Positions 1,365-61,488 are shown, counted from the first letter of the stretch. The stretch is 64,000 nt of DNA from Laspinema olomoucense D3b (GCF_025370785.1 NZ_JAMXFA010000001.1:43902-107901); one strand, 5' to 3'. Notes: generated by a model not told the origin, from the sequence alone. Translations and numbers: made by a program.

Positions 1365-1480
1365 GGTAACTAGAACTACTTCTGACTTCTAGTGAGGTTG
1401 CAAGAGACAAGAAAATGTTTTTCCTGTCTCTTGCGGAGATCAATCCAAGCCGCTCCCCTATTTGTTTCTACCAAAAAATA

Positions 1481-2242
1481 ATGTATTTCATGAATAACTT
1501 TGACTTTTTGCGTATTGGCGATGATGTTCTATCCATCCAAGAGGTGATGACTTACCTCAAGGATTCGGGGAACTTTGGTCAGTTGATGTCCACTGTATTA
1601 CGAGAGTACCTCGTAGATCGAGAACTTCAATCCCGTGACTTTCAAGTGTCAGACTCTGAAATCGAGCAATTTATTCTTGATTTTCGCCTACAGAATAATG
1701 CTGTAGAGCGTCCGGCATTTGAGCAATGGCTTTCTGAGCATCAGTTAAGTTATGAGAGTTTCCGGGAGAAGGCAATCAAGGGGATTAAGTTTCAAAAACT
1801 GCGCGAACAGGTTGCTGGGGTTGAAGTAGACCAGTTTTTTGAAGCGAACCACAGTCTTTTTGACCGTCTTGCTCTTTCCCGGATAGTCGTTCAGGAGGCT
1901 GGTCTTGCCCAGAAAGTGAGTGAAACGCTACAGCAGGATCCTGGAGAATTTAATTACTTGGTGGCAGAGTATTCTATATCTGAAGACCGACATTTAGATG
2001 GCCGGATGGGTGTGTTTCCCCGTGAGGAAATGCCGCCACAATTGCAAGCAGGTTTTAACGACAAATCTCCCGGAAGTATTATTGGCCCTATTGTTGTCGA
2101 AGATCTTCACTGCTTTTTCCGGCTTGATCAGTTAATCGAAGCTAATCTAAATGATAGCCTCCGACGAACAATTGAAGATCGGCTTTTTGAGGAGTGGCTC
2201 AGAAGTAAAATGCAAGGGATAAATCTTCAGATTTTGGTTTAG
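1481..2242 (+). CDS. PpiC/parvulin-type peptidyl-prolyl isomerase domain protein (SurA-like)
   Basis: The C-terminal segment LSRIVVQEAGLAQ...FNYLVAEYSISEDRHLDGRMGVF...GSIIGPIVVEDLHCFFRL fits the parvulin rotamase pattern. The ORF-track start at 1415 lies inside an 11-bp-stem hairpin, so the in-frame ATGs at 1481 or 1490 are more plausible starts. Confidence 0.5.
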   Translation: MYFMNNFDFLRIGDDVLSIQEVMTYLKDSGNFGQLMSTVLREYLVDRELQSRDFQVSDSEIEQFILDFRLQNNAVERPAFEQWLSEHQLSYESFREKAIKGIKFQKLREQVAGVEVDQFFEANHSLFDRLALSRIVVQEAGLAQKVSETLQQDPGEFNYLVAEYSISEDRHLDGRMGVFPREEMPPQLQAGFNDKSPGSIIGPIVVEDLHCFFRLDQLIEANLNDSLRRTIEDRLFEEWLRSKMQGINLQILV

Positions 2243-2503
2243 GGCAATGTGCTAAAAATTTTAGTACAAGCTAATCAAGTTTAGTGTTATTAATAGGATA
2301 GTTTAGGCCGTCAGAATATTTTTGATTACCCGAAAAATTAAAATTTTCCGCCTAGATGTCCCCACCTTCCCAAAAACCACGCCAGTTTTGGTGCGTTACG
2401 CGGTCAACCTAATTCCTTCCAATGTGACGGAATTGAGTCCCCATCTAGCGCACCCTCCGATCGCCAAACTTTTCTTTTTCCTTAAACATACAGGAGCATC
2501 AAA

Positions 2504-3253
2504 ATGTTGAAATCTACTGAACTCGTAAAATCCCTAGGAATCATCGGTGCAACCGCAGGAATTGCCCTCACTTCAACCCTTCCGGCTCATGCTGCTTCCT
2601 TCACCCTGAGCAACATTACAGGTACTTGGGATAACGTCGAAGGAACTTCTGTATTCAATGGCACTGATACTAATCAAGTGCGTTGGGGAAGTCCCGCCAC
2701 CCTTGCGGGTCAAAGTGGTTTGAACTTTAACAGTTCTTCTTCGTTAGTTTCTGTTTCTAGTGGGAGCAACTTTGTCCTTGGACAATTGACTCATTTGAAC
2801 TTCCCGTTGTGGGCAGGAACGGCAGCATCAGGAGCTGATTTAGACCTCTCAATGGCAATCGATGGAGTCCTTCATTCATTTAACTACAGTTTTTTGATTA
2901 ATGAGACTTCAAATACTGCTGGAACCTGTCCGTTTTTTCAAGTTAGCAACACTCCCTGTGATGATAAGATTGACTTTACCAGTCCGTTTAGCAGCACGAC
3001 TTTCCAGAAAAATGGCTTTAACTATAGCTTAGAACTGTTAGGGTTTAGCCGCACTCTTGATGGACTCTCTCCCGTTTCCTCATTTATTACGGAGGAGCAT
3101 AAAGCTTCTTCTGCCTTCCTCGTAGCGCGGGTTGTAAAAGATGGCAATAATGATGTTTCGGTTCCTGAACCGGCATCAGCGTTGGCTGTTGTTTTAATCG
3201 GACTGGCAACCACTCGGATGCGACGGAGTAAAAACTATAAATTGGTAAGATAA
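2504..3253 (+). CDS. PEP-CTERM sorting-domain secreted protein
   Basis: An N-terminal signal peptide ends ...LPAHA|AS. The C-terminus VPEPASALAVVLIGLATTRMRRSK is the canonical PEP motif, TM helix and Arg cluster. The body is Ser/Thr/Asn-rich, consistent with a secreted protein. Confidence 0.7.
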   Translation: MLKSTELVKSLGIIGATAGIALTSTLPAHAASFTLSNITGTWDNVEGTSVFNGTDTNQVRWGSPATLAGQSGLNFNSSSSLVSVSSGSNFVLGQLTHLNFPLWAGTAASGADLDLSMAIDGVLHSFNYSFLINETSNTAGTCPFFQVSNTPCDDKIDFTSPFSSTTFQKNGFNYSLELLGFSRTLDGLSPVSSFITEEHKASSAFLVARVVKDGNNDVSVPEPASALAVVLIGLATTRMRRSKNYKLVR

Positions 3254-3331
3254 TTATCTCAGCAATTTGTAACAATTACTAAGGCATCTTTTTTAAAGCC
3301 TTTGTATCTCAGCAGATATTTTGGCTTTTAA

Positions 3332-3361
3332 CCCGGTTTCTAAGCTCCCAGGGGCGATCGC
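3332..3361 (+). repeat. direct repeat copy A flanking the TA cassette (CCGGTTTCTAAG...GGGCGATCGC)
   Basis: A second, roughly 75%-similar copy lies at 4097-4129. The two copies bracket the antitoxin/mazF-like cassette. Confidence 0.45.
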
Positions 3362-11039: not shown

Positions 11040-11158
11040 GTTCTCAGGAACTAGGGCCTCGGTCCAGCATTTAGATATAAGGGGACTGTTACCGGGTTTT
11101 TGGCCCTTGGATCTCATCGGCTACCGATGTTCTAGGGATTCCTCCAGGAGTCATACCA

Positions 11159-11180
11159 AATCCGGTTGTCAAAAGTCGGT
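11159..11180 (+). repeat. short dispersed repeat AATCCGGTTGTCAAA(A/G)GTC (copy 1)
   Basis: A near-identical 21-mer sits at 45367-45387. Both copies are followed within about 60 nt by CCCACCCTTGAG. Confidence 0.4.
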
Positions 11181-11348
11181 TTTTCTTCAGCCCGCGCTTC
11201 TCGGGCTAATTCCGTGTAGACCCACCCTTGAGTCGCGCTTCTTTTTATAGACCTGGAGCCACCGAATTCGGTATCACCCTCTGATTCCGGACTTTAGAAG
11301 GAAGCGGGGAATTAAACCCCCCGCCTCCAACTGGAAGTCTCAATACGG

Positions 11349-24095: not shown

Positions 24096-25196
24096 ATGAA
24101 GGAGACGATCGCAGGCAACCTAACCCGCTACCGCAAAGCTATAGACTTATCTCAAGAACAACTCGCCAACCTCGTCAGCGTCACTCGCCAAAGCATCAAT
24201 AACTACGAAAACGCCAAAACCTTACCCGATAGCAAAACCCTCTCAGCCCTTGCCCGCACCTTGGGCGTCACCCTGGATGACTTGCTGCGCCCAGAATCTA
24301 GACCAGTCACCCCCTTTCGATTTCGCGCCCATGCGGGCATTGACAAACAACCGCAATTTGCCACGCAAGTGCGACGGATGCTGGAGATTTATCAAGCCTT
24401 AGAAGCCGCCGCAGGCATCCCCGCTTATGCCCCAGAAACCCATTCCTGTCACCAATTACCCGGCAACGAAGCACTTATTCAGGCAACAGCCGCCCGGTTT
24501 CGCCGGACCTTGGGATTAGGGGAAACGCCCATTCTCAATTTATTTGCCGCAGTAGAGGAATTGGGGTTAAAAGTCCTCCGCCAACCCATTGCAACTAAAG
24601 GCTTTTTTGGGTTAAGTGCCTGTAGCTTTGCTCAAGGTGCTTTTGTTTTAATTAATACCCATAATATTTCTATTGAACAGCAAATTTTTACTCTAGCTCA
24701 GGAAATTGGTCATTTAATTTTCCATCGAGACGACTATCAAGATAACCTAATAAAACTGGAGAATCAAGGGGAAGAAGGAGCCCGGGAAGCCGTTGCCAAT
24801 TATTTTGCCCAACATTTACTGGTTCCCCAAACCGAATTTGAGCGGTTTTATCAAATTAGCCCGAACTTGATTCAACTCAAACAGCATTTTAGAGTCAGCT
24901 ATCAAGTGATTTTAAAGCGGTTATCGGATATGGGTCGCATCGACTATGGGCGTGAAATCGCAAAGATTCGCAAGATTTATAAACAGCGAAATGGCTTATC
25001 TTTGAGCAACTGCATCGAGTTACCTCCCACCTTAAAGGCAGAAGATTTTCCAGAAAACGAACGGTATCAACAACTCATCTGGCAAGCCTTAAATCGGGGG
25101 AATATCTCAGAACTGAAAGCAGCCGAACTGCTGAATATCACCCTGGAAGAACTGGGGGTTCGTCGTCGAGAGGCGGAGGTCTATGCTATCCCGTAA
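24096..25196 (+). CDS. XRE-family HTH regulator fused to ImmA/IrrE (COG2856) metallopeptidase domain
   Basis: The N-terminal HTH is LSQEQLANLVSVTRQSINNYENAKTLPDSKTLSALARTLGVTLDDLL. An HExxH motif sits in LAQEIGHLIFH. Confidence 0.7.
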   Translation: MKETIAGNLTRYRKAIDLSQEQLANLVSVTRQSINNYENAKTLPDSKTLSALARTLGVTLDDLLRPESRPVTPFRFRAHAGIDKQPQFATQVRRMLEIYQALEAAAGIPAYAPETHSCHQLPGNEALIQATAARFRRTLGLGETPILNLFAAVEELGLKVLRQPIATKGFFGLSACSFAQGAFVLINTHNISIEQQIFTLAQEIGHLIFHRDDYQDNLIKLENQGEEGAREAVANYFAQHLLVPQTEFERFYQISPNLIQLKQHFRVSYQVILKRLSDMGRIDYGREIAKIRKIYKQRNGLSLSNCIELPPTLKAEDFPENERYQQLIWQALNRGNISELKAAELLNITLEELGVRRREAEVYAIP

Positions 25197-25686
25197 CGGC
25201 ACGATTCTCGATGCCACTGCCTTGATTGACTTTCGCTATCTTGACGAGTGGGAGTGGCTGCAACGACACTATCAGCCCTTGTACATTGCCCAAGAAGTTT
25301 TAGACTCAGATCATCTCGAACAGAGTACGCGAGAGACTGCGAAAAAATACTTAATTCCGCTTCCGTTAGAGACTGAAGAAATGTTTGCTAGTTTTCTGGA
25401 GCTTGGCAATAAAGCGCCGCTGCTGAGTGAAGCCGATCGCTCAACTCTAGTTCTTGCTCGTCATCAATTATTATTATGTGCCAGTGATGATAATTTAGTG
25501 GTGAAAATCTGCAAAGAATATGGAATCGCTTACATCAGAACTCTGCGTCTCCTGACAGAGATGGTGCAGACGGGACATAAAAGTAAGATTGAAGTCAAGA
25601 GGATGGCCGAGTTGTTAATTCAAGAGAGAGGTAAACATATTCGGTCATCCATTTTAACCAATTGGTATAATGAGTTGGGGAAGTAG
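25183..25686 (+). CDS. PIN-like protein translationally coupled to the ImmA/IrrE regulator (possibly DUF4411-type)
   Basis: Its start overlaps the upstream stop by 14 nt. The acidic start ILDATALIDF...YIAQEVLDSD resembles PIN-like nuclease beginnings. The family assignment is tentative. Confidence 0.35.
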   Translation: MLSRNGTILDATALIDFRYLDEWEWLQRHYQPLYIAQEVLDSDHLEQSTRETAKKYLIPLPLETEEMFASFLELGNKAPLLSEADRSTLVLARHQLLLCASDDNLVVKICKEYGIAYIRTLRLLTEMVQTGHKSKIEVKRMAELLIQERGKHIRSSILTNWYNELGK

Positions 25687-25794
25687 GACGAATTAAGCAA
25701 TCTATTTTTCCAGGTTGTAAGATTAATTCCTTTGAGGTCAAATTTCAGGCGATCGCCCCTGGTTTTTGGCGAGAGGCGATCGCTTTGAGGGCTG

Positions 25795-26781
25795 TTAATC
25801 AAATAGGGTAGGTTGAATAAATACAGGCGATGGAGTTACAGGCTTTTTCTGCTTTTTCCCCCCCTCCTTAGTCGCCAAATCAACGCCGCGTAGGGTTTGT
25901 GGTCTCCAGAGTACAGTATCTTCAAGATCGTGGTCTTGCGATCGCTTTAAAGCGGTATCACGCCTATTCGTGGCATAGCAATAGGTACAGCCAAACATAC
26001 AGGTTTCATAAGCCCCGATATCCACAGCTTCTACACAGCCACAATCTTGCCGGGTAGGGGCGGCTTTGAGTCCCAAATCAGAATCAGATCTGAGCATTTT
26101 AATAATATCCATATCGATACAGTGAGCTTTCTCCACCCCCATACCGAGTAAAGCATCTTCGCAGCAGGAATACAACTTAATCCCTCGGGGTTCAGCAATA
26201 TCATGCAGTTGCTGAAGCAGTCTACTTTTTTCCTCTAAAGAAGGGCGCTGAAACTTGATGCCATGAGTTTGGGAAACTTTACCCAGGTTACGTTCAGTTT
26301 TGCCGTAAAAATCCACAAAGGAAAAATAACAGCGTCTGGTATAGCCTTCTAGTTGGCGAGTTAGCAAGTCAAACCGTTCCAAATGATAGGAAGCAGGGGT
26401 CACATCACTGAGTACAATGGGGTCATACCGCCACTGCACGAGATCGGGAGAAAGACGCCGTGACAGTTTTTGGAAGGTTTCGATAGATACTTCAATCGGA
26501 GGATTATGGCTTTCTATCGCTTTCGGATAACCGATAATTGTAAAGTGAAAATAAAAGTAGTAACCCTGCTGTTCCAGGAAATCCAGATGCGGCAGTAGTG
26601 GCTTCGGGTTGCGAGTCCAAAAGGCGATCGCCAAGCAGTCCTCTGGTAAAAGCGAGACCCGGTACACCTTGCTGCTGATGGGGTTAAGCCAGTGACAGAA
26701 CCCAGCCTGGATTCGGTTGAGAAACCACTTGGAATAGAACCCCGGAATATCCGTCCGACGACTGGCGCTAATAATCTTCAT
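25795..26781 (-). CDS. DUF1848-like protein with C-terminal Cys cluster
   Basis: The N-terminus MKIISASRRTDIPGFYSKWF is characteristic of DUF1848. The C-terminal cluster CGC...CMFGCTYCY suggests a metal or Fe-S site. Confidence 0.5.
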   Translation of the reverse strand: MKIISASRRTDIPGFYSKWFLNRIQAGFCHWLNPISSKVYRVSLLPEDCLAIAFWTRNPKPLLPHLDFLEQQGYYFYFHFTIIGYPKAIESHNPPIEVSIETFQKLSRRLSPDLVQWRYDPIVLSDVTPASYHLERFDLLTRQLEGYTRRCYFSFVDFYGKTERNLGKVSQTHGIKFQRPSLEEKSRLLQQLHDIAEPRGIKLYSCCEDALLGMGVEKAHCIDMDIIKMLRSDSDLGLKAAPTRQDCGCVEAVDIGAYETCMFGCTYCYATNRRDTALKRSQDHDLEDTVLWRPQTLRGVDLATKEGGKKQKKPVTPSPVFIQPTLFD

Positions 26782-26827
26782 AAAGCTGACGGAGTTGAGA
26801 CATACTGGTATTCTATCAAAAATTGAC

Positions 26828-26854
26828 TAAAAAATCAACTTAAAAATCAACTTT
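26828..26854 (+). repeat. tandem TAAAAAATCAACTT / AAAAATCAACTTT motif in the DUF1848-RT divergent intergenic region
   Basis: Two tandem copies lie at the left edge of the AT-rich, HIP1-free insert. The same 13-mer recurs at 24045 and 22281. Confidence 0.45.
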
Positions 26855-27026
26855 AATCCATAACTGCTGTTTTCTTCCATACTCCTTGTAGTATCCTAAG
26901 AATGTGGCAAATTGAGTGCATAAATTTTTCTCTATATGCCCCTGCTGTTCTGGCTGATGGACTTTCTCAACCAGCTATGCTGTTGATCGGGTTACATCAA
27001 CCGCGTCCTACAACTCGGGGAGCCTG

Positions 27027-28655
27027 ATGACAAACAATTCTCCATTGAACCTTTACTCTTTTCATCCTCACACGGCAGAAGTCTATACGGCTGTCCATAA
27101 ATGGCTGGCTACCCAAAAAGATGCCGAAAAATACAAGAGTGTTCGTTATCCTGGGGGAGATCAACGTAAACAACAAATGGAGGATTTGCTAAATGAACCT
27201 ACCCTTAAAATGGCGGCAGCCCAATACAATATTTTCTTTCCTACCCATTATTTTAAGGTGCTTTACACTTTAGAAAATATCGTAACCTTAGAAAAAATTT
27301 GTAATTGGTTTACGTGCAATCCTCACCTATATTTTATCGATATTGGATGTGGTGCCGGAGCAGCATCTGCTGCATTTTTGCAAACCACTCTAAGTCTTGT
27401 TGAAAATCAAGATATTTGCTTAATTCATCCTTTGTATATTTCCTGCGTGGGGATAGATGTTAATAAAGGTGCATTACCCCTTTATAACCAATTGATGCTT
27501 GAATTTCAAAAAAAATTAATCCCTTGGAACATTAATTTAGAATTTACTCTGGGACTAGGAGGAATTAGAGAAAATATTTTAACAATAAGAAACCATTTAA
27601 TTAAAAAGCGCGAAAAATGGAATCAGCCTTGCTTGTCAAATATTTTAATGTTCCAATCAAACGTAATTGATATGTTGGAACAGGAGCATAGTAAACGGCG
27701 ACAGGAAGATAAAAGTTTAATAGGATATAACGTCAACTCCAACGTTATTTTAAGCGACGATAAATGGTTTGCCGATGATTATGCAATGGTTTATAAGCAG
27801 TTATTTGAAGAAATTCCTGGTGACCTAATGCATACGATTACGATAGGAACTTCAAACAGTGACAATCATCGGGTAAAACAAATGGGCGCTGCAATTGATA
27901 GAATTTTTGGAAGCAGTCGTCATCAGTTTGAATCTGTGGGAAAAGGGACAAAATCATTAACTTTTAAAAACCCTCAAAACTCTTACTGGGAGAATAACCC
28001 AAAAGATACGCATATCTATTTTCATGTTGATGTTAGTAAAATTACTAGCGTTAAGTTAGAAGAAGACCAAGACTGGCATAATGTAACTAGCAGAGACAAT
28101 TTAGAAGTAGCCTGGGTACGTGCAAGAAAACACCTTTTGAAGGAGTCTCTTTGTGATGAAGTAGAAATCCGGCTATTTGAGAAAAATCTTGAAAGAAACC
28201 TAAATCGGCTGCAAGTGTTTTTAGTAGCTTATGTTAAAGAAGTCGATCATGAAGAGGACTATATTTCCTACCCTTTTCCAAAAAAAATCTCCCAAGCTCG
28301 TTGGAGAGGCTTATCTGGCTTAGAAGAAGAAATATTATCCGTGGCAATTATTCAAAAATTAGGCAATAAAGTGGCCGAATTACGAGGCAGCAGCTATGCG
28401 TATCGAATGACCCGGGAACCCGGAAATAAAACTACAGAATATTTATATTCCTCTTGGTTTGGGGCCTATAAAAATTTTGTTAAAGATGCTTGTTTGGCCG
28501 CAGAAAAATTTCAAGCTTGTTTAATTATTCGCGCTGATATTAAATCTTTTTATACCCATATAATTCAGGATAAATTAATAAGTTTAGTTTCTCAAGAATT
28601 AATTGAAAGTAAACGCATCCGCTGGTTGCTGAGATTATTACTTTCAAAAAATTGA
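27027..28655 (+). CDS. reverse transcriptase, N-terminal part (Rossmann/SAM-MTase-like motif plus RT motifs 0-3); ends at a frameshift
   Basis: The N-terminal domain carries a glycine-rich LYFIDIGCGAGAAS block and a CVGIDVNKGAL block, matching MTase motifs I and II. The RT fingers/palm follow in three blocks. Motif 1 is YPFPKKISQARWRGLS, motif 2 is EEEILSVAIIQKLG, and motif A is LIIRADIKSFYTHI. The ORF ends TGA inside the tca-aaa-aat-tga stretch. Confidence 0.7.
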   Translation: MTNNSPLNLYSFHPHTAEVYTAVHKWLATQKDAEKYKSVRYPGGDQRKQQMEDLLNEPTLKMAAAQYNIFFPTHYFKVLYTLENIVTLEKICNWFTCNPHLYFIDIGCGAGAASAAFLQTTLSLVENQDICLIHPLYISCVGIDVNKGALPLYNQLMLEFQKKLIPWNINLEFTLGLGGIRENILTIRNHLIKKREKWNQPCLSNILMFQSNVIDMLEQEHSKRRQEDKSLIGYNVNSNVILSDDKWFADDYAMVYKQLFEEIPGDLMHTITIGTSNSDNHRVKQMGAAIDRIFGSSRHQFESVGKGTKSLTFKNPQNSYWENNPKDTHIYFHVDVSKITSVKLEEDQDWHNVTSRDNLEVAWVRARKHLLKESLCDEVEIRLFEKNLERNLNRLQVFLVAYVKEVDHEEDYISYPFPKKISQARWRGLSGLEEEILSVAIIQKLGNKVAELRGSSYAYRMTREPGNKTTEYLYSSWFGAYKNFVKDACLAAEKFQACLIIRADIKSFYTHIIQDKLISLVSQELIESKRIRWLLRLLLSKN

Positions 28656-30055
28656 ACGAACATGATTTGGGTTCGGGGGTTACTCAAGGACACATTGGTT
28701 CAGGTTTTTATGCCAATGTTTATCTAACTTCCATAGATATGAGATTCGGCTCTAATAATGAGTGGGGTCTTAAATTCTTCCGGTATGTTGATGATATGAT
28801 TATCGTTATTCCAGATCCAGAAGATGAAAAAGATGTTTTAGAACAGCTTAAGAAAGAACTACAAGAAATTGGACTGGAACTAAATGAGGATAAAACAGAA
28901 ATTTTTCACTCAGTATCCGATTTTTTAGAAATATGTAGTGAAGATGAAGATTTAACGAATTTGGGCAATGAATTTCAAGGTATTATTAATCTTTTGTGGA
29001 TAATGAACTCGGATTATCGAACTGCATTTAAATCAGCCTACCGAAAAGAAGATGATAAACTGTGGTGGCACTTAGTAGAACAATATCAATATTACCTTCA
29101 ATCACTAAAAATTTACATTCACACACCGGATCTTAGCCGTCGAATACATTCTTATATTTTTAACAGTAAAAAACGCCTGAAAGATTTAAAGGAAAAACAA
29201 GAGTTAAATTTGCCCAGCCTACCTGATGAGCATCAAGATATAATAAATTGGAAAGAAAATTTTGAAAATGCCAATCTAAATTGGAAAAACTCCAAAGACA
29301 GCTTAAGAGCCAAACTTGTAAGTATGTTTTGCGAAAGCTGGGAAAACTTACAAGCACTTGCTCCAAATGATGTAAAGACAGCTAGAAACCTCCAAACACG
29401 GATTCGTTTTGCCTTGAACAAGCTCTCTTTATTGGGTATAACAGAGATTTCTAAATATTTGGCAGATATTTTGTGTCAAAGCCCCTGGACGGTCCGCGAG
29501 CCTTTACAAGCTGTAGAAAGTTTGGCACGCCAAGGATGTTTATCTGAAGTCATTGGGATACTTGCCTACTATCAACATACCTCATATCCCATGAGTGAAT
29601 ATATGAGATCTGTTACTTTAAGAGCCCTCAGATTTTTACCTGAAATGGAGGTATTTATCTGGGAAAAAATTGTAGAATTTGCAACTATTGGGACTCTGGT
29701 AGAACGACTCATGGCAACTGAAACCTGGATAGCTTTGGGGTATATATCGGAGCAGTTCGTAGAGCCACATCATATTGATGCTGTATTAGTTGCTTTACAT
29801 GGCGAACCCAAGCCCACACCCAGACTCAAGAAAAATTATCTGCTTATTTTGGGACTGCATGATAGCCAACTTATTAAGAACGAGCCTATAAACACTCAAG
29901 ATTATTTGTTAGATGAAGCCCGTAATCTTGTATTAGAAGAAAGTGTTGGTGATTTATTTAGCTACCAGGAGCCTCAAATAATTCGAGAAAAATACTATAG
30001 TGGAAAGGGTCAATCCGAGATAGGCGATGAAGTCGATTATCCCGTCCTGAGATAA
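28652..30055 (+). CDS. reverse transcriptase, C-terminal part (RT motifs B-D/thumb plus alpha-helical repeat domain)
   Basis: Motif B is GVTQGHIGSGFYANVYLTSID and motif C is FRYVDDMIIV, the YxDD box. Motif D is LELNEDKTEIF. A roughly 330-aa helical, HEAT-like tail follows. The part starts at TTG in the -1 frame, overlapping the upstream stop at the A6 run. Confidence 0.7.
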   Translation: MNEHDLGSGVTQGHIGSGFYANVYLTSIDMRFGSNNEWGLKFFRYVDDMIIVIPDPEDEKDVLEQLKKELQEIGLELNEDKTEIFHSVSDFLEICSEDEDLTNLGNEFQGIINLLWIMNSDYRTAFKSAYRKEDDKLWWHLVEQYQYYLQSLKIYIHTPDLSRRIHSYIFNSKKRLKDLKEKQELNLPSLPDEHQDIINWKENFENANLNWKNSKDSLRAKLVSMFCESWENLQALAPNDVKTARNLQTRIRFALNKLSLLGITEISKYLADILCQSPWTVREPLQAVESLARQGCLSEVIGILAYYQHTSYPMSEYMRSVTLRALRFLPEMEVFIWEKIVEFATIGTLVERLMATETWIALGYISEQFVEPHHIDAVLVALHGEPKPTPRLKKNYLLILGLHDSQLIKNEPINTQDYLLDEARNLVLEESVGDLFSYQEPQIIREKYYSGKGQSEIGDEVDYPVLR

Positions 30056-30164
30056 ACAAGGAAACTGATTATGACGCTTCAATTTATTAACTTTTAAGAA
30101 AGGTTGGCTTCAGCTTGCTAACTGGAAGTTGTGCCGATCGCCCCCTAAACGTCCTCAAACCTCC

Positions 30165-30195
30165 GAAAAAAACACAAAAGGCGCGATCGCCGCGC
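30165..30195 (-). terminator. rho-independent terminator of the minus-strand gene 30215-30670 (GGCGCG-atcgc-CGCGCC plus U-tract on minus strand)
   Basis: On the plus strand an A-rich run aaaaaaacacaaaa precedes the GC hairpin. The site lies between convergent genes. Confidence 0.5.
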
Positions 30196-30214
30196 CTCCT
30201 GTTACTTATCCAAA

Positions 30215-30670
30215 TTACGACTCCCAGTCGGGACAGTCGCCATCGGCTTCCCAGCCATAGGGATGCATCCCACAAACCAGTAAATTGCCCCCGTAAACCT
30301 GTCCGTGATAGTTTTTACAACCGATACAGGCTGAATATTTTTCCGCTGTGGGTTCCACAGATGACACAAACCCATCCATGTCCGTCGGGAATTCATCTAG
30401 TCCTAAATACAGGTCAAAAAAGGGATCAACTAACTCTTCAAAATATTGGTCGAGTTCGGTAAAAATTGTGGTTTGCAATTCTTCCGTGAATTCTTCAGAC
30501 AGTTCCATGATATCTGAAGAAAACCTTCCCAAAATATCAACGAATTCCTCGACCTCTTCCGTCACTTCTTGAACAAAGCGATCCACTTCTTGTCCCGCTG
30601 TTTCTAACATCTTGAAAAATTCTTTCGGCCAATCTTCCATAACCCTTTGCCTAATGATTTCCGGAAGCAA
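30215..30670 (-). CDS. hypothetical acidic protein with C-terminal Cys/His cluster
   Basis: The C-terminus is CIGCKNYHG...LVCGMHPYGW...DCPDW. No family is recognisable. Confidence 0.35.
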   Translation of the reverse strand: MLPEIIRQRVMEDWPKEFFKMLETAGQEVDRFVQEVTEEVEEFVDILGRFSSDIMELSEEFTEELQTTIFTELDQYFEELVDPFFDLYLGLDEFPTDMDGFVSSVEPTAEKYSACIGCKNYHGQVYGGNLLVCGMHPYGWEADGDCPDWES

Positions 30671-30673
30671 TCT

Positions 30674-31045
30674 TTATTCGTTCTGGAGTCGCCGTAGTTC
30701 ATCCTGTAACGATTGTACCTGATCGCGCAGGTTATTCACCTCCGGAGGTTTCTCCGGGGCGGGTTCTTCATCGTCTTCTAAGATTTCAATGCGACGGGGC
30801 TCTCGTGGCGTTGTGGGTTCAGATGGGGGCTGCTTGATCTGCTGCTGGCCCTGTTTCATCATGTCTTCCACGAAGCGACGCGCTTCTTCGGTGCTCATTT
30901 CGCCCCGTTCGACCATTTCATCGGCAAGTTTTTGGGCTTGGTCCCGCACTTCGGCTAATTTTCCGGTTGCTTTTTCGCCCGCGTAAGACGCGATTCCCAC
31001 TCCCAGATAGAAGGCCTTTTGTACCATATCACCGAAACCAGGCAT
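30674..31045 (-). CDS. hypothetical phasin-like small protein
   Basis: MVQKAFYLGVGIASYAGEKA...EEARRFVEDMM resembles the phasin / granule-associated helical protein family. The assignment is tentative. Confidence 0.35.
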   Translation of the reverse strand: MPGFGDMVQKAFYLGVGIASYAGEKATGKLAEVRDQAQKLADEMVERGEMSTEEARRFVEDMMKQGQQQIKQPPSEPTTPREPRRIEILEDDEEPAPEKPPEVNNLRDQVQSLQDELRRLQNE

Positions 31046-31311
31046 AGGCAGTATTGCTCCTTAGTCGCTGAGGTTACTGCTTCTAGGATAAGGCCAATAG
31101 AGGCGGAGTGACCACCAAAAAGCGGCAGTAAAAAAAAGTGACCCGGATACCACGCCTGTCACAAGCATCCCGTATTGCTGCTACCTTCCGGTCCTGACAA
31201 GATTTGGGCGTTATGACCGCATGGGTCCAGGTCATTTACAACTATATCATTGTTGTCCGACTCTTGTCTAGGGGGTTGCGGAATATTTTTTAAAGTTGTG
31301 ATTTCAGCCCG

Positions 31312-31687: not shown

Positions 31688-34444
31688 TTAAAAACAGGCT
31701 TTGAGGCGGGTGGGGGGGATGGAATGGGGGATGGACCGATCGCCCAATAACTGGCAACCCTGACGCACTAAATCATCCAGTTCCAGGTTCCAAACGATCG
31801 CCGTTCCATCGTCACTGGTGGAGGCTAATTCTCCCCCTTCTGGAGACCAGGATACATGAGTGATGGCTTGTTGATGTCCGCGTAAGGGAGTGAGGAAACT
31901 GCCGTCTCGGTTCCAGAGGTTAACGGTCCCCTCAGCAGTTCCGGTGGCAAGGATTTGGGAATCGGGGTGGAAATTGAGGCTAGTGACGGGGCTAGAATGT
32001 GGGAGAATACTTAATAATTTACCATCGGTTTCTCGCCAGAGTCGGACGGTGCCATCATCACTGGCGGAGGCTAATAATTGACCATCGGGACTGAAGCGAA
32101 TGGCAACGACGCGATCGCCATGTCCTTCGAGGAGATGAATCAATTTACCATCGCTGGTTCTGCGAAGGAATATCCGGCGATCGCTACTGGCAGAAGCGAG
32201 GGTTTTGCCGTTGGGTGAAAACCTCACGGATAAGACTTGATCCTGATGTTCTGTCCAGGTTTGCAGCAATTTTCCATCTTTGATCCGCCAAATTTTCACG
32301 GTTTTTTCTTCTGCGGTGGCGATCGCCTCTGTTTTGGGACTAAAACTCACATCGGTGATGGGACTTGAATGAGGGATTGTCAGGGGTAATTTTTTTCCGG
32401 TGGTTGTCCAGAATTGCAGGGGATGATCCGGGGTTGCGACTGCGAGGATTTGGCGGTTAAAACTGATAGCAATGCGGTGGATTGGACTGGGAATATTGTC
32501 TAAATTCTGGGCAACGGTGCGATCGCCATTCCACAGGGTAACAGTATGAGGGGTAGCCGTGACGATTCCCTGACCGTTGGGGGTAAATTCCAGGGCGATC
32601 GCTGGGTGAGGATGGAGGAGGCGATCGGGTTCGATGAAACCATAGATCGCCTGATGTAACCCTAGGGCCACGCGGAACTGAGTGGCGGAGTTGACCCCAA
32701 TAAATGCCTTGAGTTCTTGGGCGGCTTCCAGGCTTTCTATCAGGGCCAGTTCTGCTTTATTTTCCGCAATTAAAACTTGAGAAAGCAAGGCAATGGCATT
32801 AAGTTTTGTATGGGTTCTATCAATGGATTTATTAACCCAAAATACGCCAATTAGGAATGACAAAATAGCAATAATTGCACCGCTTAAGGCGATTATACGT
32901 TGGGAGAGATGGTCCCGATATTCTTGAAGTTTGGCGTCGCTGATTTCCCGGAGATTTTGTTCCTGAGTGAGTTTTTCTAATAATTCTTTTTCTCGATAAA
33001 GTTGCTGAATTTTGAACTCAGTTTGTTCCGCATCTTTGCGAAATTCGCTTAATTCGGCTTCTTGACTGGCGGCTAAAAATTGATAATCGCGATCGCTCAA
33101 ATTTTTCCCTTTGGCCCATTCACCGGCATCTTGTAAGGCTTTTCCTCTCAGTAAGCGGGAAGTATCCTGGCAGTTGGATTGCAACCAGGCTGCTAATGCT
33201 TCGGCATAAGGACGCAAATCAAATAAGGATTTTTCCACCCATTTGGGGTTAAAAATTGCAGCATAAATGGGATTGCTAAGGGTTAAGTTTACGTCTACAA
33301 CTCGGACTAAACCAGATAGGCGTAATTCGGTTTGTTCCGGACTATCATCGGCGGGGATTGCTTTAAATTGTAAGATTTTTTGATAGCATCCTAGTAAACG
33401 TCCCGCCCGTTGTGGGTTTCTCAAGAGGCGATCGCGAACAGTTCGCAGATGTGCCGGTTCGTCCCGAGATTCCCAATTGTCAATGATTTGGGTTTTAATG
33501 AATCCTTCGACCCATTCTGCTTCATTGCCGGATTGGGGTAAAAATTCGGGGCTAACTTTTCCCGTTTCAAGAACCAATTGACATAATTTTTGGGTTAAAA
33601 AAGGTTGTCCCCCAGTCCAATGGAGAATCTGGTGGATGACTTCTTGGGGATTAGCCACGATAGCAGCTAATCCAGCGACTAGCGGTTGGACTTCATTGAG
33701 TTGAAAGCCCGATAAATCAATCGCATGGCCGATATTAAAGGGGGTACGAGTGCGATCGCTAATTAAATCCGAGGGGGTGGCAACTCCCAAGAGGGCAAAA
33801 GTCAGGCGATCGTAATGGGAATTTTGCGATCGCTTATTGTAGCAAGACCGAATTAAGGCAAAAAAGTCTTCCAAAGATTCATTCACGCTTAACACGCTAT
33901 CAATTTCATCAATAAAAATCACAATTCGCTGAAAAACCTGTTGCAACAACACCGTTTCAATCAGTTCCCCCAAACGATGAACTGGAGAAATTGACTCCCG
34001 GTCCTGCCACCAGTTCATAAACTCCAAAGCATCTAATAAATTAAAATTGCTGGTGAGTTTATAGGCAACGCCTCCATACCATTGTTCGAGAGAAATTTGT
34101 TTACTACCAATATCAGAAATATCAATCGTAGCACAGGCAACTCCCTCAGCAGTTAGACGCTGCACTGTTCGCACCAGCAAGCTAGATTTTCCCATCTGCC
34201 GAGAATTAAGAATGTAACAAAACTCGCCAATTTTTAACTTTTCATAGAAATTAGAATCAGCTTTTCGCATCACATAGGTAGGAGAAGTTTCCGGCAAACT
34301 TCCTCCCGCTTGATAATAAGTTCCTTTTTGCATAGTGAGGGCTAAATTAAAAACAAAATATCTCAATTTAGATAGACCTGAGATTTTGCACCCGTTGCAA
34401 CAACCGGCGGAGGTTAAAACGAGTGGCGGCCTCATAGCTTGCAT
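31688..34444 (-). CDS. AAA-like (STAND-type) NTPase with coiled coil and C-terminal WD40 repeats
   Basis: The block YVMRKADSNFYEKLKIGEFCYILNSRQMGKSSLLVRTV resembles the cyanobacterial AAA-like domain with a Walker A-like GKSSL. The C-terminus carries WD40 repeats (GHQQAITHVSWSPEGGELASTSDDGTAIVWNLE). The more likely start is the Met at 34333, at MQKGTYY. Confidence 0.7.
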   Translation of the reverse strand: MQAMRPPLVLTSAGCCNGCKISGLSKLRYFVFNLALTMQKGTYYQAGGSLPETSPTYVMRKADSNFYEKLKIGEFCYILNSRQMGKSSLLVRTVQRLTAEGVACATIDISDIGSKQISLEQWYGGVAYKLTSNFNLLDALEFMNWWQDRESISPVHRLGELIETVLLQQVFQRIVIFIDEIDSVLSVNESLEDFFALIRSCYNKRSQNSHYDRLTFALLGVATPSDLISDRTRTPFNIGHAIDLSGFQLNEVQPLVAGLAAIVANPQEVIHQILHWTGGQPFLTQKLCQLVLETGKVSPEFLPQSGNEAEWVEGFIKTQIIDNWESRDEPAHLRTVRDRLLRNPQRAGRLLGCYQKILQFKAIPADDSPEQTELRLSGLVRVVDVNLTLSNPIYAAIFNPKWVEKSLFDLRPYAEALAAWLQSNCQDTSRLLRGKALQDAGEWAKGKNLSDRDYQFLAASQEAELSEFRKDAEQTEFKIQQLYREKELLEKLTQEQNLREISDAKLQEYRDHLSQRIIALSGAIIAILSFLIGVFWVNKSIDRTHTKLNAIALLSQVLIAENKAELALIESLEAAQELKAFIGVNSATQFRVALGLHQAIYGFIEPDRLLHPHPAIALEFTPNGQGIVTATPHTVTLWNGDRTVAQNLDNIPSPIHRIAISFNRQILAVATPDHPLQFWTTTGKKLPLTIPHSSPITDVSFSPKTEAIATAEEKTVKIWRIKDGKLLQTWTEHQDQVLSVRFSPNGKTLASASSDRRIFLRRTSDGKLIHLLEGHGDRVVAIRFSPDGQLLASASDDGTVRLWRETDGKLLSILPHSSPVTSLNFHPDSQILATGTAEGTVNLWNRDGSFLTPLRGHQQAITHVSWSPEGGELASTSDDGTAIVWNLELDDLVRQGCQLLGDRSIPHSIPPTRLKACF

Positions 34445-45249: not shown

Positions 45250-45366
45250 TGATTATTCCTATTATTCTTCCAACCAGCCCCATCATTTTACGATGGAGGA
45301 TAGAAAAGTCTGAGAGGATGAAATAAAAATTAAGAATTAATACGCAATCCGGTGGTCTCCTACGGA

Positions 45367-45387
45367 ATCCGGTTGTCAAAGGTCTGT
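45367..45387 (+). repeat. short dispersed repeat AATCCGGTTGTCAAAGGTCTG (copy 2; tandem partial copy AATCCGGTGGTC just upstream)
   Basis: It matches 11159-11180. The shared CCCACCCTTGAG block lies downstream of both copies. Confidence 0.4.
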
Positions 45388-45419
45388 AAAAACCCCCACC
45401 CTTGAGGGTGTGGGTTTTT
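45388..45419 (-). terminator. bidirectional-looking terminator hairpin downstream of the P450 gene (AAAAACCCCCACCC-ttga-GGGTGTGGGTTTTT)
   Basis: A 9-bp GC stem is flanked by A- and T-runs. It lies between the P450 stop and the menA start. Confidence 0.5.
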
Positions 45420-53911: not shown

Positions 53912-54970
53912 ATGACGATTGCAGTCGGACGCGCACAGGCAGAGCGGGGATGGTTTGACGTCCTCGACGACTGGCTAAAACGCGATCGCTTCGTCTTTAT
54001 CGGTTGGTCTGGCCTATTACTCTTCCCCTGCGCCTACCTCGCAGTGGGAGGCTGGCTGACCGGCACCACCTTCGTCACCTCTTGGTACACCCACGGATTG
54101 GCCTCCTCCTACTTAGAAGGTTGCAACTTCCTCACCGTGGCTGTTTCTACTCCCCCCAACAGTCTGGGACATTCCCTACTGTTCCTCTGGGGTCCTGAAG
54201 CTCAAGGGGACTTCACCCGGTGGTGTCAACTTGGCGGTCTGTGGACCTTCGTCGCCCTACATGGGGCCTTTGGTCTGATTGGCTTCTGCCTGCGTCAGTT
54301 GGAAATTGCCCGCTTGCTCGGGATCCGTCCCTACAACGGACTCGCCTTTACCGGACCCATTGCGGTGTTCGTCAGCGTGTTCTTGATTTACCCCTTGGGT
54401 CAATCTGGCTGGTTCTTTGCTCCGAGCTTTGGCGTCGCGGCTATCTTCCGCTTCCTGTTGTTTTTCCAAGGGTTCCATAACTGGACCCTCAACCCCTTCC
54501 ACATGATGGGAGTGGCTGGTATCCTCGGTGGTGCACTGCTGTGCGCCATTCACGGAGCCACCGTGGAAAACACCCTGTTTGAAGATGGCGAAGGTTCTAA
54601 CACCTTCCGCGCCTTTGAACCGACTCAGGCGGAAGAAACCTACTCGATGGTTACCGCTAACCGTTTTTGGTCCCAAATTTTTGGGGTCGCTTTCTCCAAC
54701 AAGCGCTGGTTACACTTCTTTATGTTGTTCGTCCCAGTCACCGGCTTGTGGATGAGCGCGATCGGGGTCGTTGGCTTAGGTTTAAACCTACGTGCCTATG
54801 ACTTTGTTTCTCAAGAACTGCGGGCTGCTGAAGACCCGGAATTTGAAACCTTCTACACCAAGAATATTCTTCTGAATGAAGGGATTCGGGCTTGGATGGC
54901 TCCCGTGGACCAGCCTCACGAAAACTTCGAGTTCCCTGAAGAAGTTCTACCTCGCGGTAACGCTCTGTAG
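53912..54970 (+). CDS. psbD: photosystem II D2 protein
   Basis: This is a full-length D2 sequence, [42 protein letters not shown]...[10 protein letters not shown]. Confidence 0.95.
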
Positions 54971-55081
54971 AAAATTTAATTGCAGATTTTTGATTTTGGA
55001 TTGGATTTAATTCCCCTCTAAAACCTAAAATCTAAACAAGCGATATCATCTGTTGTCGATCGCAAAAAGAGGTTCTCATCC

Positions 55082-56467
55082 GTGCAAACATCTTTCAATA
55101 GTTCGATGGTCATGGGCGGACGTGACCAAGAAACCTCCGGGTTTGCCTGGTGGTCTGGAAACGCCCGTCTGATCAACTTATCCGGGAAACTGCTGGGCGC
55201 TCACGTTGCTCACGCTGGATTGATTGTCTTCTGGGCTGGAGCGATGACTTTATTTGAAGTCGGTCACTTCATTCCTGAAAAGCCCATGTATGAGCAAGGC
55301 TTAATCCTTCTGCCTCACCTGGGTACCCTGGGCTGGGGTGTAGGTCCGGGCGGAGAAGTCATCGATACTTTCCCCTACTTTGTTATTGGTGTTCTGCACC
55401 TGATTTCTTCTGCCGTTCTCGGTCTCGGTGGTATCTACCACGCCGTTCGCGGACCGGAAACCCTGGAAGAATACTCTTCTTTCTTCGGGTATGACTGGCG
55501 CGACAAGAACAAGATGACCACCATCTTGGGCTTCCACCTGATCGTTCTGGGATTGGGTGCCCTGTTGCTAGTGCTCAAAGCCATGTTCTTTGGTGGGGTG
55601 TATGACACCTGGGCACCCGGTGGCGGTGACGTGCGGGTGATTACGAACCCAACTCTGAACCCCGCTGTGATCTTCGGTTATCTAGCCCGGTCTCCCTTCG
55701 GTGGCGAAGGCTGGCTGATCGGTGTCGATAACATGGAAGACATCATCGGCGGTCATATTTGGGTTGGCTTTACGTGCATTATTGGCGGTGTTTGGCACAT
55801 CCTCACCAAGCCTTTTGGTTGGGTGCGTCGCGCCTTCATCTGGTCTGGAGAAGCTTATCTGTCCTACAGCTTAGGTGCTCTGTCCTTAATGGGCTTTGTA
55901 GCTGCTTCCTTCGTTTGGTTTAACAACACTGCTTATCCCAGCGAATTTTACGGCCCCACCAACGCTGAATCTTCTCAGGCTCAAGCCTTCACTTTCTTGG
56001 TTCGTGACCAACGCTTAGGTGCCAACATCGGTACTGCTCAAGGCCCCACGGGTCTGGGTAAATACCTGATGCGCTCTCCTACTGGGGAAATCATCTTCGG
56101 TGGTGAAACCATGCGCTTCTGGGATTTCCGTGGCCCCTGGTTGGAACCCCTCCGTGGACCGAATGGCTTGGATCTGCGTAAGCTGAAAAATGACATTCAA
56201 CCCTGGCAAATCCGTCGGGCTGCTGAGTATATGACTCACGCTCCTAACGGTTCCATCAACTCTGTGGGTGGGATTATCACTGAAGCTAACGGCTTCAACT
56301 ATGTGAATCCCCGCGCTTGGTTGGCTGGTTCTCACTTCATCTTGGCCTTCTTCTTCTTAGTGGGTCACCTGTGGCACGCTGGACGCGCTCGCGCCGCTGC
56401 TGCTGGATTTGAACGCGGTATCGACCGTGAAGATGAGCCAGTGTTGGCCATGACTGAACTCGATTAA
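55082..56467 (+). CDS. psbC: photosystem II CP43 protein (GTG start)
   Basis: [48 protein letters not shown]... is canonical CP43. A GTG start codon is classical for psbC. Confidence 0.95.
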
Positions 56468-61485: not shown

Positions 61486-61488
61486 AAA

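What the first reader, a model, noticed from the sequence alone, without database searches (positions are those of the whole stretch)
27027..30055. Frameshift-split reverse transcriptase of about 1,000 aa with N-terminal methyltransferase-like motif and C-terminal alpha-repeat domain, in an AT-rich HIP1-free insert
Seen directly in the sequence:
- RT motifs 1, 2 and A sit in the C-terminus of ORF 27027-28655. Motifs B and C (FRYVDDMIIV) and motif D sit in the N-terminus of ORF 28652-30055. The two ORFs therefore form one gene broken at tca-aaa-aat-tga by a -1 shift in an A6 run.
- About 400 aa upstream of the RT fingers carry IDIGCGAGAAS...CVGIDVN. This matches Rossmann-fold SAM-methyltransferase motifs I and II.
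- About 330 aa downstream are helical repeats. These recall the alpha-repeat tail of class 1 UG/Abi defence RTs (DRT-type), but I know of no described RT with a methyltransferase-like N-domain.
- The whole 26.85-30.06 kb stretch is conspicuously AT-rich and contains no GCGATCGC. The flanking DNA is full of HIP1 sites, so recent horizontal acquisition is likely.

This is a candidate novel standalone defence RT. The A6 break could be programmed slippage or a homopolymer error.
Basis: partly seen in the sequence, partly recalled or inferred. Interest (0 to 1): 0.9.

Follow-up and report, generated by a model that had tools for sequence, protein, structure and literature searches.

The report
Frameshifted UG35 methylase-fused defence reverse transcriptase
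The two ORFs are one roughly 1,009-residue reverse-transcriptase gene of the already catalogued but uncharacterised UG35 family (methylase-like domain, RT, helical repeats), and in this cyanobacterial strain it is broken by a real one-base deletion.

Summary
ORFs 27027-28655 and 28652-30055 are one RT gene split at an A6 run, and the stretch is the most AT-rich and longest HIP1-free part of the window.

The novelty claim does not hold. The repaired protein matches PADLOC RT_UG35 end to end (E=0, 1096 bits). Mestre et al. 2022 described UG35 and UG25 as Class 1 UG/Abi RTs with an N-terminal methylase and a C-terminal alpha-repeat domain.

The gene is not standalone. The divergent neighbour at 25795-26781 is a DUF1848 protein (PADLOC RTasDUF1848), and 11 related loci keep it beside the RT. 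A sister clade carries a UvrD-exonuclease helicase instead.

The break is a real A7-to-A6 deletion:
- Laspinema olomoucense has the intact 1009-aa allele, 1000/1009 identical.
- A second strain shares the A6 and has a further A-tract frameshift.
- More than 100 homologs are single ORFs.

Low GC and HIP1 depletion are traits of the whole family (61 loci), so they do not show recent insertion. Even so, the RT allele was swapped relative to a syntenic Oscillatoria genome (dS 1.2 versus 0.07-0.26 in the flanks).

The parts
25795..26781 (-). DUF1848 gene (328 aa), the conserved divergent partner of the RT. The CX3CX2C motif (C261, C265, C268) and further cysteines are invariant.
   Evidence: Pfam PF08902, 1.9e-91. 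PADLOC RTasDUF1848, 2.5e-55. Found divergently upstream of the RT in 11 of 61 related loci and in L063. Cysteines are invariant in 20 diverse homologs. Its GC and HIP1 content are host-like, unlike the RT.
26782..27026 (.). Divergent intergenic region. It holds the DUF1848 promoter-like site (minus strand, 26838-26810, TTGATT-17-TAGAAT with TG) and a roughly 170-nt RT leader.
   Evidence: Promoter scan. The TTGA..ATCAAC block is conserved at a fixed distance from the DUF1848 start in all loci of the DUF1848 clade, whose spacers are mostly only 59-71 nt. The leader fold is not exceptional, z = -1.08. No Rfam hit.
27027..28061 (+). N-terminal Rsm22/METTL17-like class I SAM-methyltransferase-fold domain (aa 1-345). 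Motif I DIGCGAGAAS is at 27339-27368, with motif II at D144.
28062..28655 (+). First half of the RT domain (fingers, motifs 1-2 and A, D504), ending at the premature TGA at 28653-28655.
28646..28651 (+). A6 run: the site of the one-base deletion (A7 in the intact allele) that splits the gene.
   Evidence: Three-way alignment with L064 (intact, A7, reading ...LLLSKKLNEHD...) and L062 (A6). Junction codons in 55 homologs. No stimulatory structure downstream, z = -0.9.
28652..28945 (+). Second half of the RT domain: motif B (TQGHIGSGFYAN), motif C YVDD (28784-28795), motif D (K623), and the thumb.
28946..30055 (+). C-terminal all-helical (alpha-repeat-like) domain, aa 641-990. It ends in the invariant EPxIIRxxYYSG motif (YYSG at 29993-30004), followed by a disordered acidic tail.
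   Evidence: Full-length model, pLDDT 87.6, about 18 helices. Foldseek alignments of 585-697 columns to AbiA, AbiK, UG15, DRT4 and DRT6. Only the PADLOC UG35 model matches it. Y991 and G993 are invariant.
30174..30202 (.). GC-rich hairpin containing a HIP1 site between the convergent RT and downstream gene. It is terminator-like, with a clear T-tail on the minus strand.
   Evidence: Homology to the syntenic genome L001 resumes at 30133.

Best explanation
SHOWN. The locus is a two-gene module of a known kind. It consists of a UG35-type Class 1 UG/Abi reverse transcriptase and, divergently transcribed, a DUF1848 protein with an invariant radical-SAM-like CX3CX2C motif. The RT has an Rsm22/METTL17-like SAM-methyltransferase-fold domain, an RT domain and an alpha-helical repeat domain, about 1009 aa in all. 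In this strain the RT gene carries a genuine one-base deletion (A7 to A6 at 28646-28651). That deletion truncates translation after motif A, so the copy is inactive or nearly so. An intact allele persists in Laspinema olomoucense, and a third strain has gained a second A-tract frameshift. Low GC and HIP1 depletion are properties of the whole RT family. The RT allele at this conserved locus has been exchanged by recombination relative to a close Oscillatoria relative.

INFERRED (mechanism of the intact system, roughly 35% confidence). Like the characterised Class 1 enzymes (AbiK, Abi-P2, DRT4, DRT7, Drt3b), the RT probably makes DNA without a nucleic-acid template. Synthesis is possibly primed on a protein tyrosine; the invariant Y991 in the flexible C-terminal YYSG motif is a candidate. 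The SAM-binding N-domain would bind or methylate a structured RNA or the DNA product. DUF1848, or the UvrD-DEDDh helicase in the sister clade, would process that nucleic acid or the invader's. The outcome would be anti-phage defence of the abortive-infection type.
For: Family identity:
- PADLOC RT_UG35, E=0, 1095.6 bits, covering residues 9-998.
- The N- and C-terminal parts each hit only the UG35 model.
- Members of all three clades hit UG35 at 972-1387 bits; RT_UG25 (157-186 bits) appeared for only four of the six homologs scanned and was absent from the window protein's top 25 hits.
- The architecture is described in PMC9226505.

Folds.

Partner gene.

A real deletion:
- L064 (GCA_025370725.1) has an intact 1009-aa ORF with A7, 1000/1009 identical to the repaired window protein.
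- L062 (GCA_025370715.1, 98.7% identical over 10.9 kb) has the same A6 plus an extra A at 29657-29663.
- Two A8 runs in ORF1, and other 7-9-mers in intact ORFs, are in frame.
- All 11 other genes shared with L001 are collinear.
- More than 100 homologs are single ORFs of ~1000-1020 aa.
- Frameshifts in other loci lie at different positions.

Composition as a family trait.

Allele swap:
- Flanks are 87-95% identical to L001, but the RT is only 51% identical at the protein level.
- Breakpoints lie at 27104 and at about 30040-30133.
- dS is 1.19 in the RT against 0.07-0.26 in the flanks.
- The window RT is closer (65%) to that of a more distant genome, L063, whose DUF1848 is only 86% identical.

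Catalytic competence of the family: RT motifs A-D and the SAM motifs are invariant, and dN/dS is about 0.29.

Class 1 means untemplated synthesis: abstracts and review.
Against: - No member of UG35 has been tested. Mestre et al. found the defence-island association of UG35 and UG25 'inconclusive'.
- The paper links UG35 to a UvrD-like helicase and DUF1848 to UG25. The pairing seen here therefore departs from the published description.
- DUF1848 is a widespread, slowly evolving family (more than 1000 homologs, 50-65% identity across phyla). Elsewhere it sits next to DEAD-box helicases or restriction genes rather than RTs. Its tie to the RT could be looser than an obligate partnership. Consistent with that, the RT allele was swapped while DUF1848 stayed put.
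- Motif IV of the methyltransferase domain is not strictly conserved. Rsm22/METTL17 themselves act largely as RNA-binding assembly factors (my own knowledge, not checked here). Catalytic methyl transfer is therefore unproven.
- Reads were not available, so an assembly artefact cannot be fully excluded.
Confidence: 0.75

Rival explanations
1. Programmed -1 ribosomal frameshifting on A_AAA_AAU, or transcriptional slippage on the A run, restores the full-length protein. On this view the split is a regulatory feature rather than a defect.
For: In the ORF1 frame the site reads tcA AAA AAU UGA. That is a formal X_XXY_YYZ heptamer followed immediately by a stop codon. The same A6 is kept in two diverged strains. 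The rest of both ORFs is undamaged in the window.
Against: The sister strain encodes the same protein as one ORF with A7. None of more than 100 homologs is split here, including loci that read TCA AAA AAT TTG in frame. There is no stable downstream structure, z = -0.9. A6 is short for transcriptional slippage, and AAU is a poor slippery codon in bacteria (general knowledge, not tested here). L062 has a second, uncompensated frameshift.
Confidence: 0.06
2. The A6 is a homopolymer sequencing or assembly error, and the gene is intact in the organism.
For: Both frame disruptions seen in the Laspinema strains (28646-28651 and 29657-29663) lie in A runs. The gene is otherwise perfectly conserved.
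Against: The same A6 occurs in a separate public assembly whose RT differs at 18 sites. A further deposited assembly with an adjacent accession number resolves A7 at this site. A8 runs at 27508 and 28280 in the same ORF, and 7-9-mers in other ORFs, are in frame. No other gene shared with L001 is broken.
Confidence: 0.12
3. The A-tract indels are a reversible on/off (phase-variation-like) switch for a costly or autotoxic defence gene, rather than one-way decay.
For: Three closely related strains show three states: intact, one A-tract frameshift, and two A-tract frameshifts. The gene is AT-rich with many A and T runs. There is no other damage, and the dN/dS values between strains are not those of a long-dead gene.
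Against: Tracts of 6-7 nt slip rarely compared with classical contingency loci, which have 8 or more (general knowledge). The tract is not conserved in homologs. Two hits in one strain look more like decay.
Confidence: 0.1
4. The intact system is not an anti-phage defence. It would instead be a cellular nucleic-acid modification or repair module, for example an RNA-methylating, cDNA-making enzyme working with a DNA-repair-type DUF1848.
For: The defence association of UG35 and UG25 was inconclusive. The N-domain's closest folds are ribosome-assembly methyltransferases. Some sources name DUF1848 'DNA repair photolyase'. DUF1848 is highly conserved and often sits with helicases.
Against: - Distribution is patchy, with many clusters seen only once.
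- The gene is repeatedly pseudogenised.
- The allele is hypervariable at a fixed locus, with saturated dS.
- Composition is foreign in every host.
- Neighbours are toxin-antitoxin-like genes.
- All characterised relatives with this RT plus alpha-repeat fold are defence enzymes.
Confidence: 0.12

Closest known systems
UG35 (Class 1 UG/Abi reverse transcriptases; Mestre et al. 2022, NAR 50:6084)
   Same: End-to-end HMM match. N-terminal methylase-like domain, RT and C-terminal alpha-repeat domain, about 1000 aa. No experimental characterisation.
   Different: The published partner is a UvrD-like helicase. Here, and in 11 related loci, the partner is DUF1848. The UvrD-DEDDh helicase marks a sister cyanobacterial clade, and the clades outside cyanobacteria have neither. 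This copy is frameshifted.
UG25 (Class 1 UG/Abi, methylase-fused, DUF1848-associated)
   Same: Same three-domain layout, and the same reported partner family, DUF1848.
   Different: Only distant by sequence. RT_UG25 is not among the top 25 PADLOC hits for this protein. It scores 157-186 bits on family members against 972-1387 bits for UG35. The N-domain alone does not hit the UG25 model.
AbiK / Abi-P2 / AbiA, DRT4 (UG15), DRT6, DRT7 (UG10): characterised Class 1 UG/Abi enzymes
   Same: RT core plus C-terminal helical repeat domain superpose over 585-697 columns. They are single large polypeptides that sometimes carry a second fused transferase, as with the primase in DRT7.
   Different: None has a methyltransferase-fold domain or a DUF1848 partner. 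Their untemplated or protein-primed synthesis is only inferred for UG35.
Rsm22 / METTL17 mitochondrial small-subunit assembly methyltransferases
   Different: 8-11% sequence identity. No Pfam match for ORF1 at E of 0.1 or below. Fused to a polymerase. The substrate is unknown.
Retron, DGR and group II intron RTs
   Same: The RT palm and fingers match at E of about 1e-11.
   Different: All NCBIfam scores are far below the family cut-offs (group II 79.5 against 300; retron St85 41 against 235). There is no maturase or endonuclease domain, no msr/msd or template repeat, and no Rfam RNA nearby.

Membership tests
UG35 (Class 1 UG/Abi RT) | Full-length match to the family profile | tested here: met
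   PADLOC RT_UG35, E=0, 1095.6 bits, protein 9-998 against profile 4-932 of 938. The N-part scores 6.5e-87 and the C-part 2e-109, each hitting only UG35.
UG35 (Class 1 UG/Abi RT) | N-terminal methyltransferase domain fused to the RT | tested here: met
UG35 (Class 1 UG/Abi RT) | C-terminal alpha-repeat domain | tested here: met
   Residues 641-990 are all-helical at high confidence. Foldseek alignments to AbiK, AbiA, UG15, DRT4 and DRT6 extend well beyond the RT core.
UG35 (Class 1 UG/Abi RT) | Association with a UvrD-like helicase (cluster 22 of Mestre et al.) | tested here: not met
   There is no helicase next to the window's RT. A UvrD + RNase_T helicase sits immediately upstream in about 26 loci of the sister clade only. 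This is an accessory-gene feature, not part of the RT profile.
UG35 (Class 1 UG/Abi RT) | Anti-phage function | not testable with these tools
   It was never tested experimentally, and the defence-island score was inconclusive in the source paper.
UG25 | Match to the family profile | tested here: not met
   RT_UG25 is absent from the top 25 hits for the window protein. It scores only 157-186 bits on relatives.
UG25 | Adjacent DUF1848 gene (cluster 579) | tested here: met
   DUF1848 lies at 25795-26781 on the minus strand and hits PADLOC RTasDUF1848 at 2.5e-55.
Programmed -1 frameshift site | Slippery heptamer X_XXY_YYZ in the upstream frame | tested here: met
   A_AAA_AAU followed by UGA.
Programmed -1 frameshift site | Downstream stimulatory structure | tested here: not met
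   Fold of 28640-28740: -19 kcal/mol, z = -0.9.
Programmed -1 frameshift site | Conservation of the split in homologs | tested here: not met
   Homologs are single ORFs. An intact A7 allele exists in a sister strain. Frameshifts elsewhere occur at other positions.
Rsm22/METTL17 methyltransferase family | Fold similarity | tested here: met
Rsm22/METTL17 methyltransferase family | Sequence-profile membership (Pfam Rsm22) | tested here: not met
   No Pfam family at E of 0.1 or below for ORF1. Sequence identity to the structural hits is only 8-11%.
Radical SAM-like enzyme (for the DUF1848 partner) | CX3CX2C cluster-binding motif and radical SAM fold | tested here: inconclusive
   C261-x3-C265-x2-C268 is invariant in 20 diverse homologs. 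There is a weak hit of residues 258-276 to the start of the PADLOC pVip (viperin) profile. No PDB sequence match was found, and no structure model was made.
Group II intron / retron / DGR RT | Family-specific score and partner RNA | tested here: not met
   NCBIfam scores are far below the cut-offs. There is no Rfam RNA in 25500-31200 apart from an unrelated SRP RNA.

The most novel reading that the evidence does not exclude
The DUF1848-linked branch of UG35 could be a distinct two-gene immune system. In it, a polymerase that writes DNA without a template would be coupled to two SAM-using modules: an Rsm22-like methyltransferase domain and a radical-SAM-like DUF1848 enzyme. Together they would produce or recognise a chemically modified nucleic acid. 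The RT gene would be kept as a pool of ancient, AT-rich alleles that are swapped at a fixed locus and switched off by A-tract indels.
Probability: 0.15. Interest if true: 0.7.

Novelty: new member of a known kind. Interest (0 to 1): 0.33.

Why it matters
As a discovery, this matters little. The methylase-RT-alpha-repeat architecture was published in 2022 and has a PADLOC model, and this particular copy is broken.

As a lead, it has moderate value, because UG35 remains one of the uncharacterised DRT-like families. This analysis adds five usable facts:
- An intact natural allele exists to clone (Laspinema olomoucense, L064).
- UG35 divides into a DUF1848-linked clade, a UvrD-exonuclease-linked clade and clades with neither partner.
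- The N-domain is Rsm22/METTL17-like, which points to a structured-RNA substrate.
- An invariant C-terminal YYSG tyrosine is a candidate priming residue.
- The RT gene behaves as a hypervariable, compositionally foreign cassette at a conserved locus.

Tried and rejected
ncRNA partner:
- Rfam at a permissive threshold found nothing in 25500-31200 except an SRP RNA outside the module.
- The 191-nt stretch 26850-27040 (the RT leader and first 14 nt of the ORF) and the region after the slip site fold no better than shuffles.
- The only conserved block in the spacer is the DUF1848 promoter, and most relatives have only a 59-71-nt spacer.
- No conserved element lies downstream in the window's clade.

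Other checks:
- Programmed frameshifting and assembly error were rejected for the reasons given under the rival explanations.
- Group II intron, retron, DGR and the named Drt2-4 families were rejected. They score only on the RT core and fall below the cut-offs.
- An exact-sequence look-up of ORF1 found no record. The locus was traced through the DUF1848 protein instead.
- PDB sequence searches gave only RT cores for the RT and nothing for DUF1848.
- Supplementary tables of the UG/Abi paper were not available.
- RNAalifold on the element conserved downstream in the UvrD clade gave no convincing consensus.
- I considered treating the AT-rich block as an inserted island with target-site repeats. 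I dropped this once L001, L062, L064 and L063 showed the same gene at the same position.
Full report
1. WHAT IS IN THE SEQUENCE

The two ORFs are exactly as described: 27027-28655 (542 aa) and 28652-30055 (467 aa, in the -1 frame). The junction is tca-aaa-aat-tga, with the A6 run at 28646-28651. Inserting one A gives a 1009-aa protein.

- Pfam RVT_1 then spans the junction (residues 488-632, E 1.4e-17). ORF2 alone matches only the second half of the model.
- Motif A (D504) is in ORF1. Motif B, YVDD (28784-28795) and motif D are in ORF2.
- The stretch is the GC minimum of the window, 0.362 against 0.464, and holds the longest HIP1-free gap, 26624-30183.

2. WHAT FAMILY IT IS

The repaired protein matches the PADLOC model RT_UG35 from end to end (E=0, 1095.6 bits, residues 9-998 on profile positions 4-932 of 938). 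The N-terminal 347 aa and the C-terminal 381 aa each hit that model and nothing else.

Mestre et al. 2022 (PMC9226505) defined UG35 and UG25 as Class 1 UG/Abi RTs.

No later paper in the searchable library mentions UG35. The 2026 overview of DRT mechanisms covers only DRT1-9. The family is catalogued but uncharacterised.

3. STRUCTURE

The N-terminal 350 aa model at pLDDT 90.1 and pTM 0.89, with the seven-strand class I methyltransferase topology.

- Foldseek returns only class I methyltransferases and MTase-fold proteins: Dot1L, Trm5a, SABATH enzymes, the plant GRAS domain.
- SAM motifs I and II are invariant across 41 sequences, but the motif IV region is not. SAM binding is therefore likely, while catalysis remains open.
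- A phmmer scan of 1.84 billion representative proteins finds only 131 relatives of this domain. Most are ~1000-aa proteins of RT-fusion length and the rest are shorter sequences. The domain appears largely confined to this RT family.

The full-length model (pLDDT 87.6, pTM 0.87) has an all-helical C-terminal region, residues 641-990. Together with the RT it aligns over 585-697 columns with AbiA, AbiK, UG15, DRT4 and DRT6.

The family ends in an invariant YYSG motif just before a disordered tail. I flag Y991 as a candidate priming tyrosine. This is inference only.

4. GENE CONTEXT

The divergent neighbour at 25795-26781 is a DUF1848 protein (Pfam 1.9e-91; PADLOC 'RTasDUF1848' 2.5e-55). Sixty-one related genomic loci fall into three groups:

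| Clade | Loci | Partner gene |
|---|---|---|
| Cyanobacterial clade containing the window | 11 | DUF1848, divergent, 59-245 nt away |
| Sister cyanobacterial clade | about 26 | 817-aa UvrD helicase with an inserted RNase_T exonuclease, immediately upstream on the same strand |
| Basal clades of Chloroflexota, Acidobacteriota and Bacteroidota | remainder | neither |

These groupings rest.

All three clades hit the UG35 model at 972-1387 bits, while RT_UG25 (157-186 bits) appeared for only four of the six homologs scanned. The DUF1848 partnership, which the paper assigns to UG25, therefore also occurs inside UG35. This is a modest extension of the published picture.

DUF1848 has an invariant CX3CX2C motif plus further cysteines. 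It is widespread (more than 1000 homologs). Elsewhere it sits in operons with large DEAD-box helicases or among restriction genes.

5. THE FRAMESHIFT

More than 100 homologs are single ORFs of about 1000-1020 aa. They align through the junction without gaps.

The DUF1848 protein led to two deposited assemblies that are about 98.7% identical to the window over 10.9 kb:

- GCA_025370725.1 (the source's name for the 99%-identical DUF1848 protein on this contig is Laspinema olomoucense) has an intact 1009-aa ORF with A7. It reads ...LLLSKKLNEHD... and is 1000/1009 identical to my repaired protein.
- GCA_025370715.1 has the same A6 as the window. It also has an extra A in the run at 29657-29663 and differs at 18 further sites.

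Two A8 runs in ORF1 and other 7-9-mers in intact ORFs are in frame. Every other gene shared with the syntenic genome L001 is collinear. No stimulatory structure follows the site. Frameshifts in other loci lie elsewhere.

The simplest reading is a genuine inherited A7-to-A6 deletion, that is, recent inactivation. The alternatives are programmed recoding (about 6%), assembly error (about 12%) and reversible A-tract switching (about 10%).

6. COMPOSITION AND HORIZONTAL TRANSFER

In nearly all 61 loci the RT gene is 4-22 GC points below its flanks. In HIP1-bearing genomes it is depleted 11-fold in HIP1 (8 sites per 112 kb against 299 per 380 kb). The adjacent DUF1848 has host-like GC and the UvrD gene is only slightly below its flanks. 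The signature therefore belongs to the gene family and does not date this copy.

The locus itself is shared with Oscillatoria sp. S11.Bin022 (L001).

- The flanks are 87-95% identical.
- Identity collapses between 27104, which is 78 nt into the ORF, and about 30040-30133.
- Across that interval the RT is 51% identical at the protein level, with dS 1.19 and dN/dS about 0.29. The flanking genes have dS 0.07-0.26.
- The window's RT is closer (65%) to that of a more distant genome, L063, whose DUF1848 is only 86% identical.

This is allele replacement by recombination at a conserved locus, not insertion of an island.

7. ncRNA

Nothing was found. There is no Rfam hit. The leader folds unexceptionally. 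The conserved spacer motif is the DUF1848 promoter, and most relatives have only about 60 nt between the genes.

8. HOW IT PROBABLY WORKS (inference)

Characterised Class 1 UG/Abi enzymes synthesise DNA without a nucleic-acid template, often primed on the protein. The product is toxic or acts as a decoy during infection. The shared RT plus alpha-repeat fold, the invariant catalytic motifs and the absence of a partner RNA all favour the same mode here.

The SAM-binding Rsm22-like domain would engage a structured RNA or modify the product. DUF1848, or the UvrD-exonuclease in the sister clade, would process nucleic acid. I put about 35% on this outline. About 12% goes to a role outside defence.

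9. VERDICT

This is a real feature, correctly observed. It is a frameshift-inactivated new member of a known, uncharacterised family. Interest is moderate to low (0.33). Its main value is as a pointer to an intact allele and as a sharper set of hypotheses for UG35.

Noticed in passing
L008 13043-13200; also L043, L011, L013/L041, L047, L015, L060, L050 (directly after the RT stop codon): UvrD-clade UG35 loci from several genera share a conserved non-coding element of about 90-150 nt, with invariant blocks GCTAAC...CCGCCGC...CGTTA. It has no Rfam hit and no convincing consensus fold. Single folds are significant in some loci (z -2.3 to -3.9) but not in others. It is absent from the window. It could be a partner RNA, a terminator or attenuator, or a repeat.
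   Followed up: partly
window 24096-25686 (+): An overlapping gene pair. The first gene is an XRE-HTH + Peptidase_M78 (ImmA/IrrE-like) protein that hits PADLOC RmrA and the NCBIfam spr1629 repressor/antitoxin family. The second is a DUF3368 PIN-like protein that weakly hits PADLOC PDC-S70. The pair looks like a toxin-antitoxin or defence module next to the RT module. In L063 a UPF0175-DUF3368 pair occupies the same position.
   Followed up: partly
window ~31136-31235 (-): Bacterial small SRP RNA (Rfam RF00169, 35.5 bits, E 7e-5). The match was cut off by the search range I chose.
   Followed up: no
window 31688-34444 (-): A 918-aa protein with an AAA_35 ATPase and a WD40 beta-propeller, STAND-like, two genes downstream of the RT. 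It is conserved in L001, L062 and L064.
   Followed up: no
window 11153-11277, 45358-45398, 61469-61548, 62985-63129; L001 6801-7318: Short dispersed repeats in the window match a roughly 120-nt segment that is inserted into the HTH-M78 gene region of L001. This looks like a small mobile or repetitive element family.
   Followed up: no
L066 5001-11023, L067, L068, L070 (DUF1848 loci in other phyla); L065: Outside cyanobacteria, DUF1848 is repeatedly the first gene of an operon with a large DEAD/Helicase_C protein (706-1966 aa). In one Thermoleophilia contig it lies among Mrr, GmrSD and type I R-M genes. This suggests a nucleic-acid-processing role of its own.
   Followed up: partly
L021 and L024 (RT residue ~850); L031 (~275); L042 (~455, ~1.5-kb insertion); L050, L052, L053: Several other UG35 genes are interrupted at different places. 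L021 and L024 share the same break before the last ~155 aa, which could be an inherited split of the alpha-repeat tail rather than decay.
   Followed up: no
window 27578-30015 versus L062 and L064: The SNP pattern among the three Laspinema strains is mosaic. The window matches L062 across 27578-28603 and matches L064 across 28888-30015. A 5-SNP cluster lies at 27848-27872. This indicates recombination within the RT gene inside the population.
   Followed up: partly
window 53982-56747 and 1-3354: These are the other long HIP1-free stretches. One (53982-56747) holds two long membrane-protein ORFs (361 and 481 aa) that I read by eye as psbD/psbC-like photosystem II genes, with no family search run (GC 0.51). 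The other covers secreted or PEP-CTERM-like proteins (GC 0.435). HIP1 gaps of about 3 kb are therefore not unique to the RT.
   Followed up: partly
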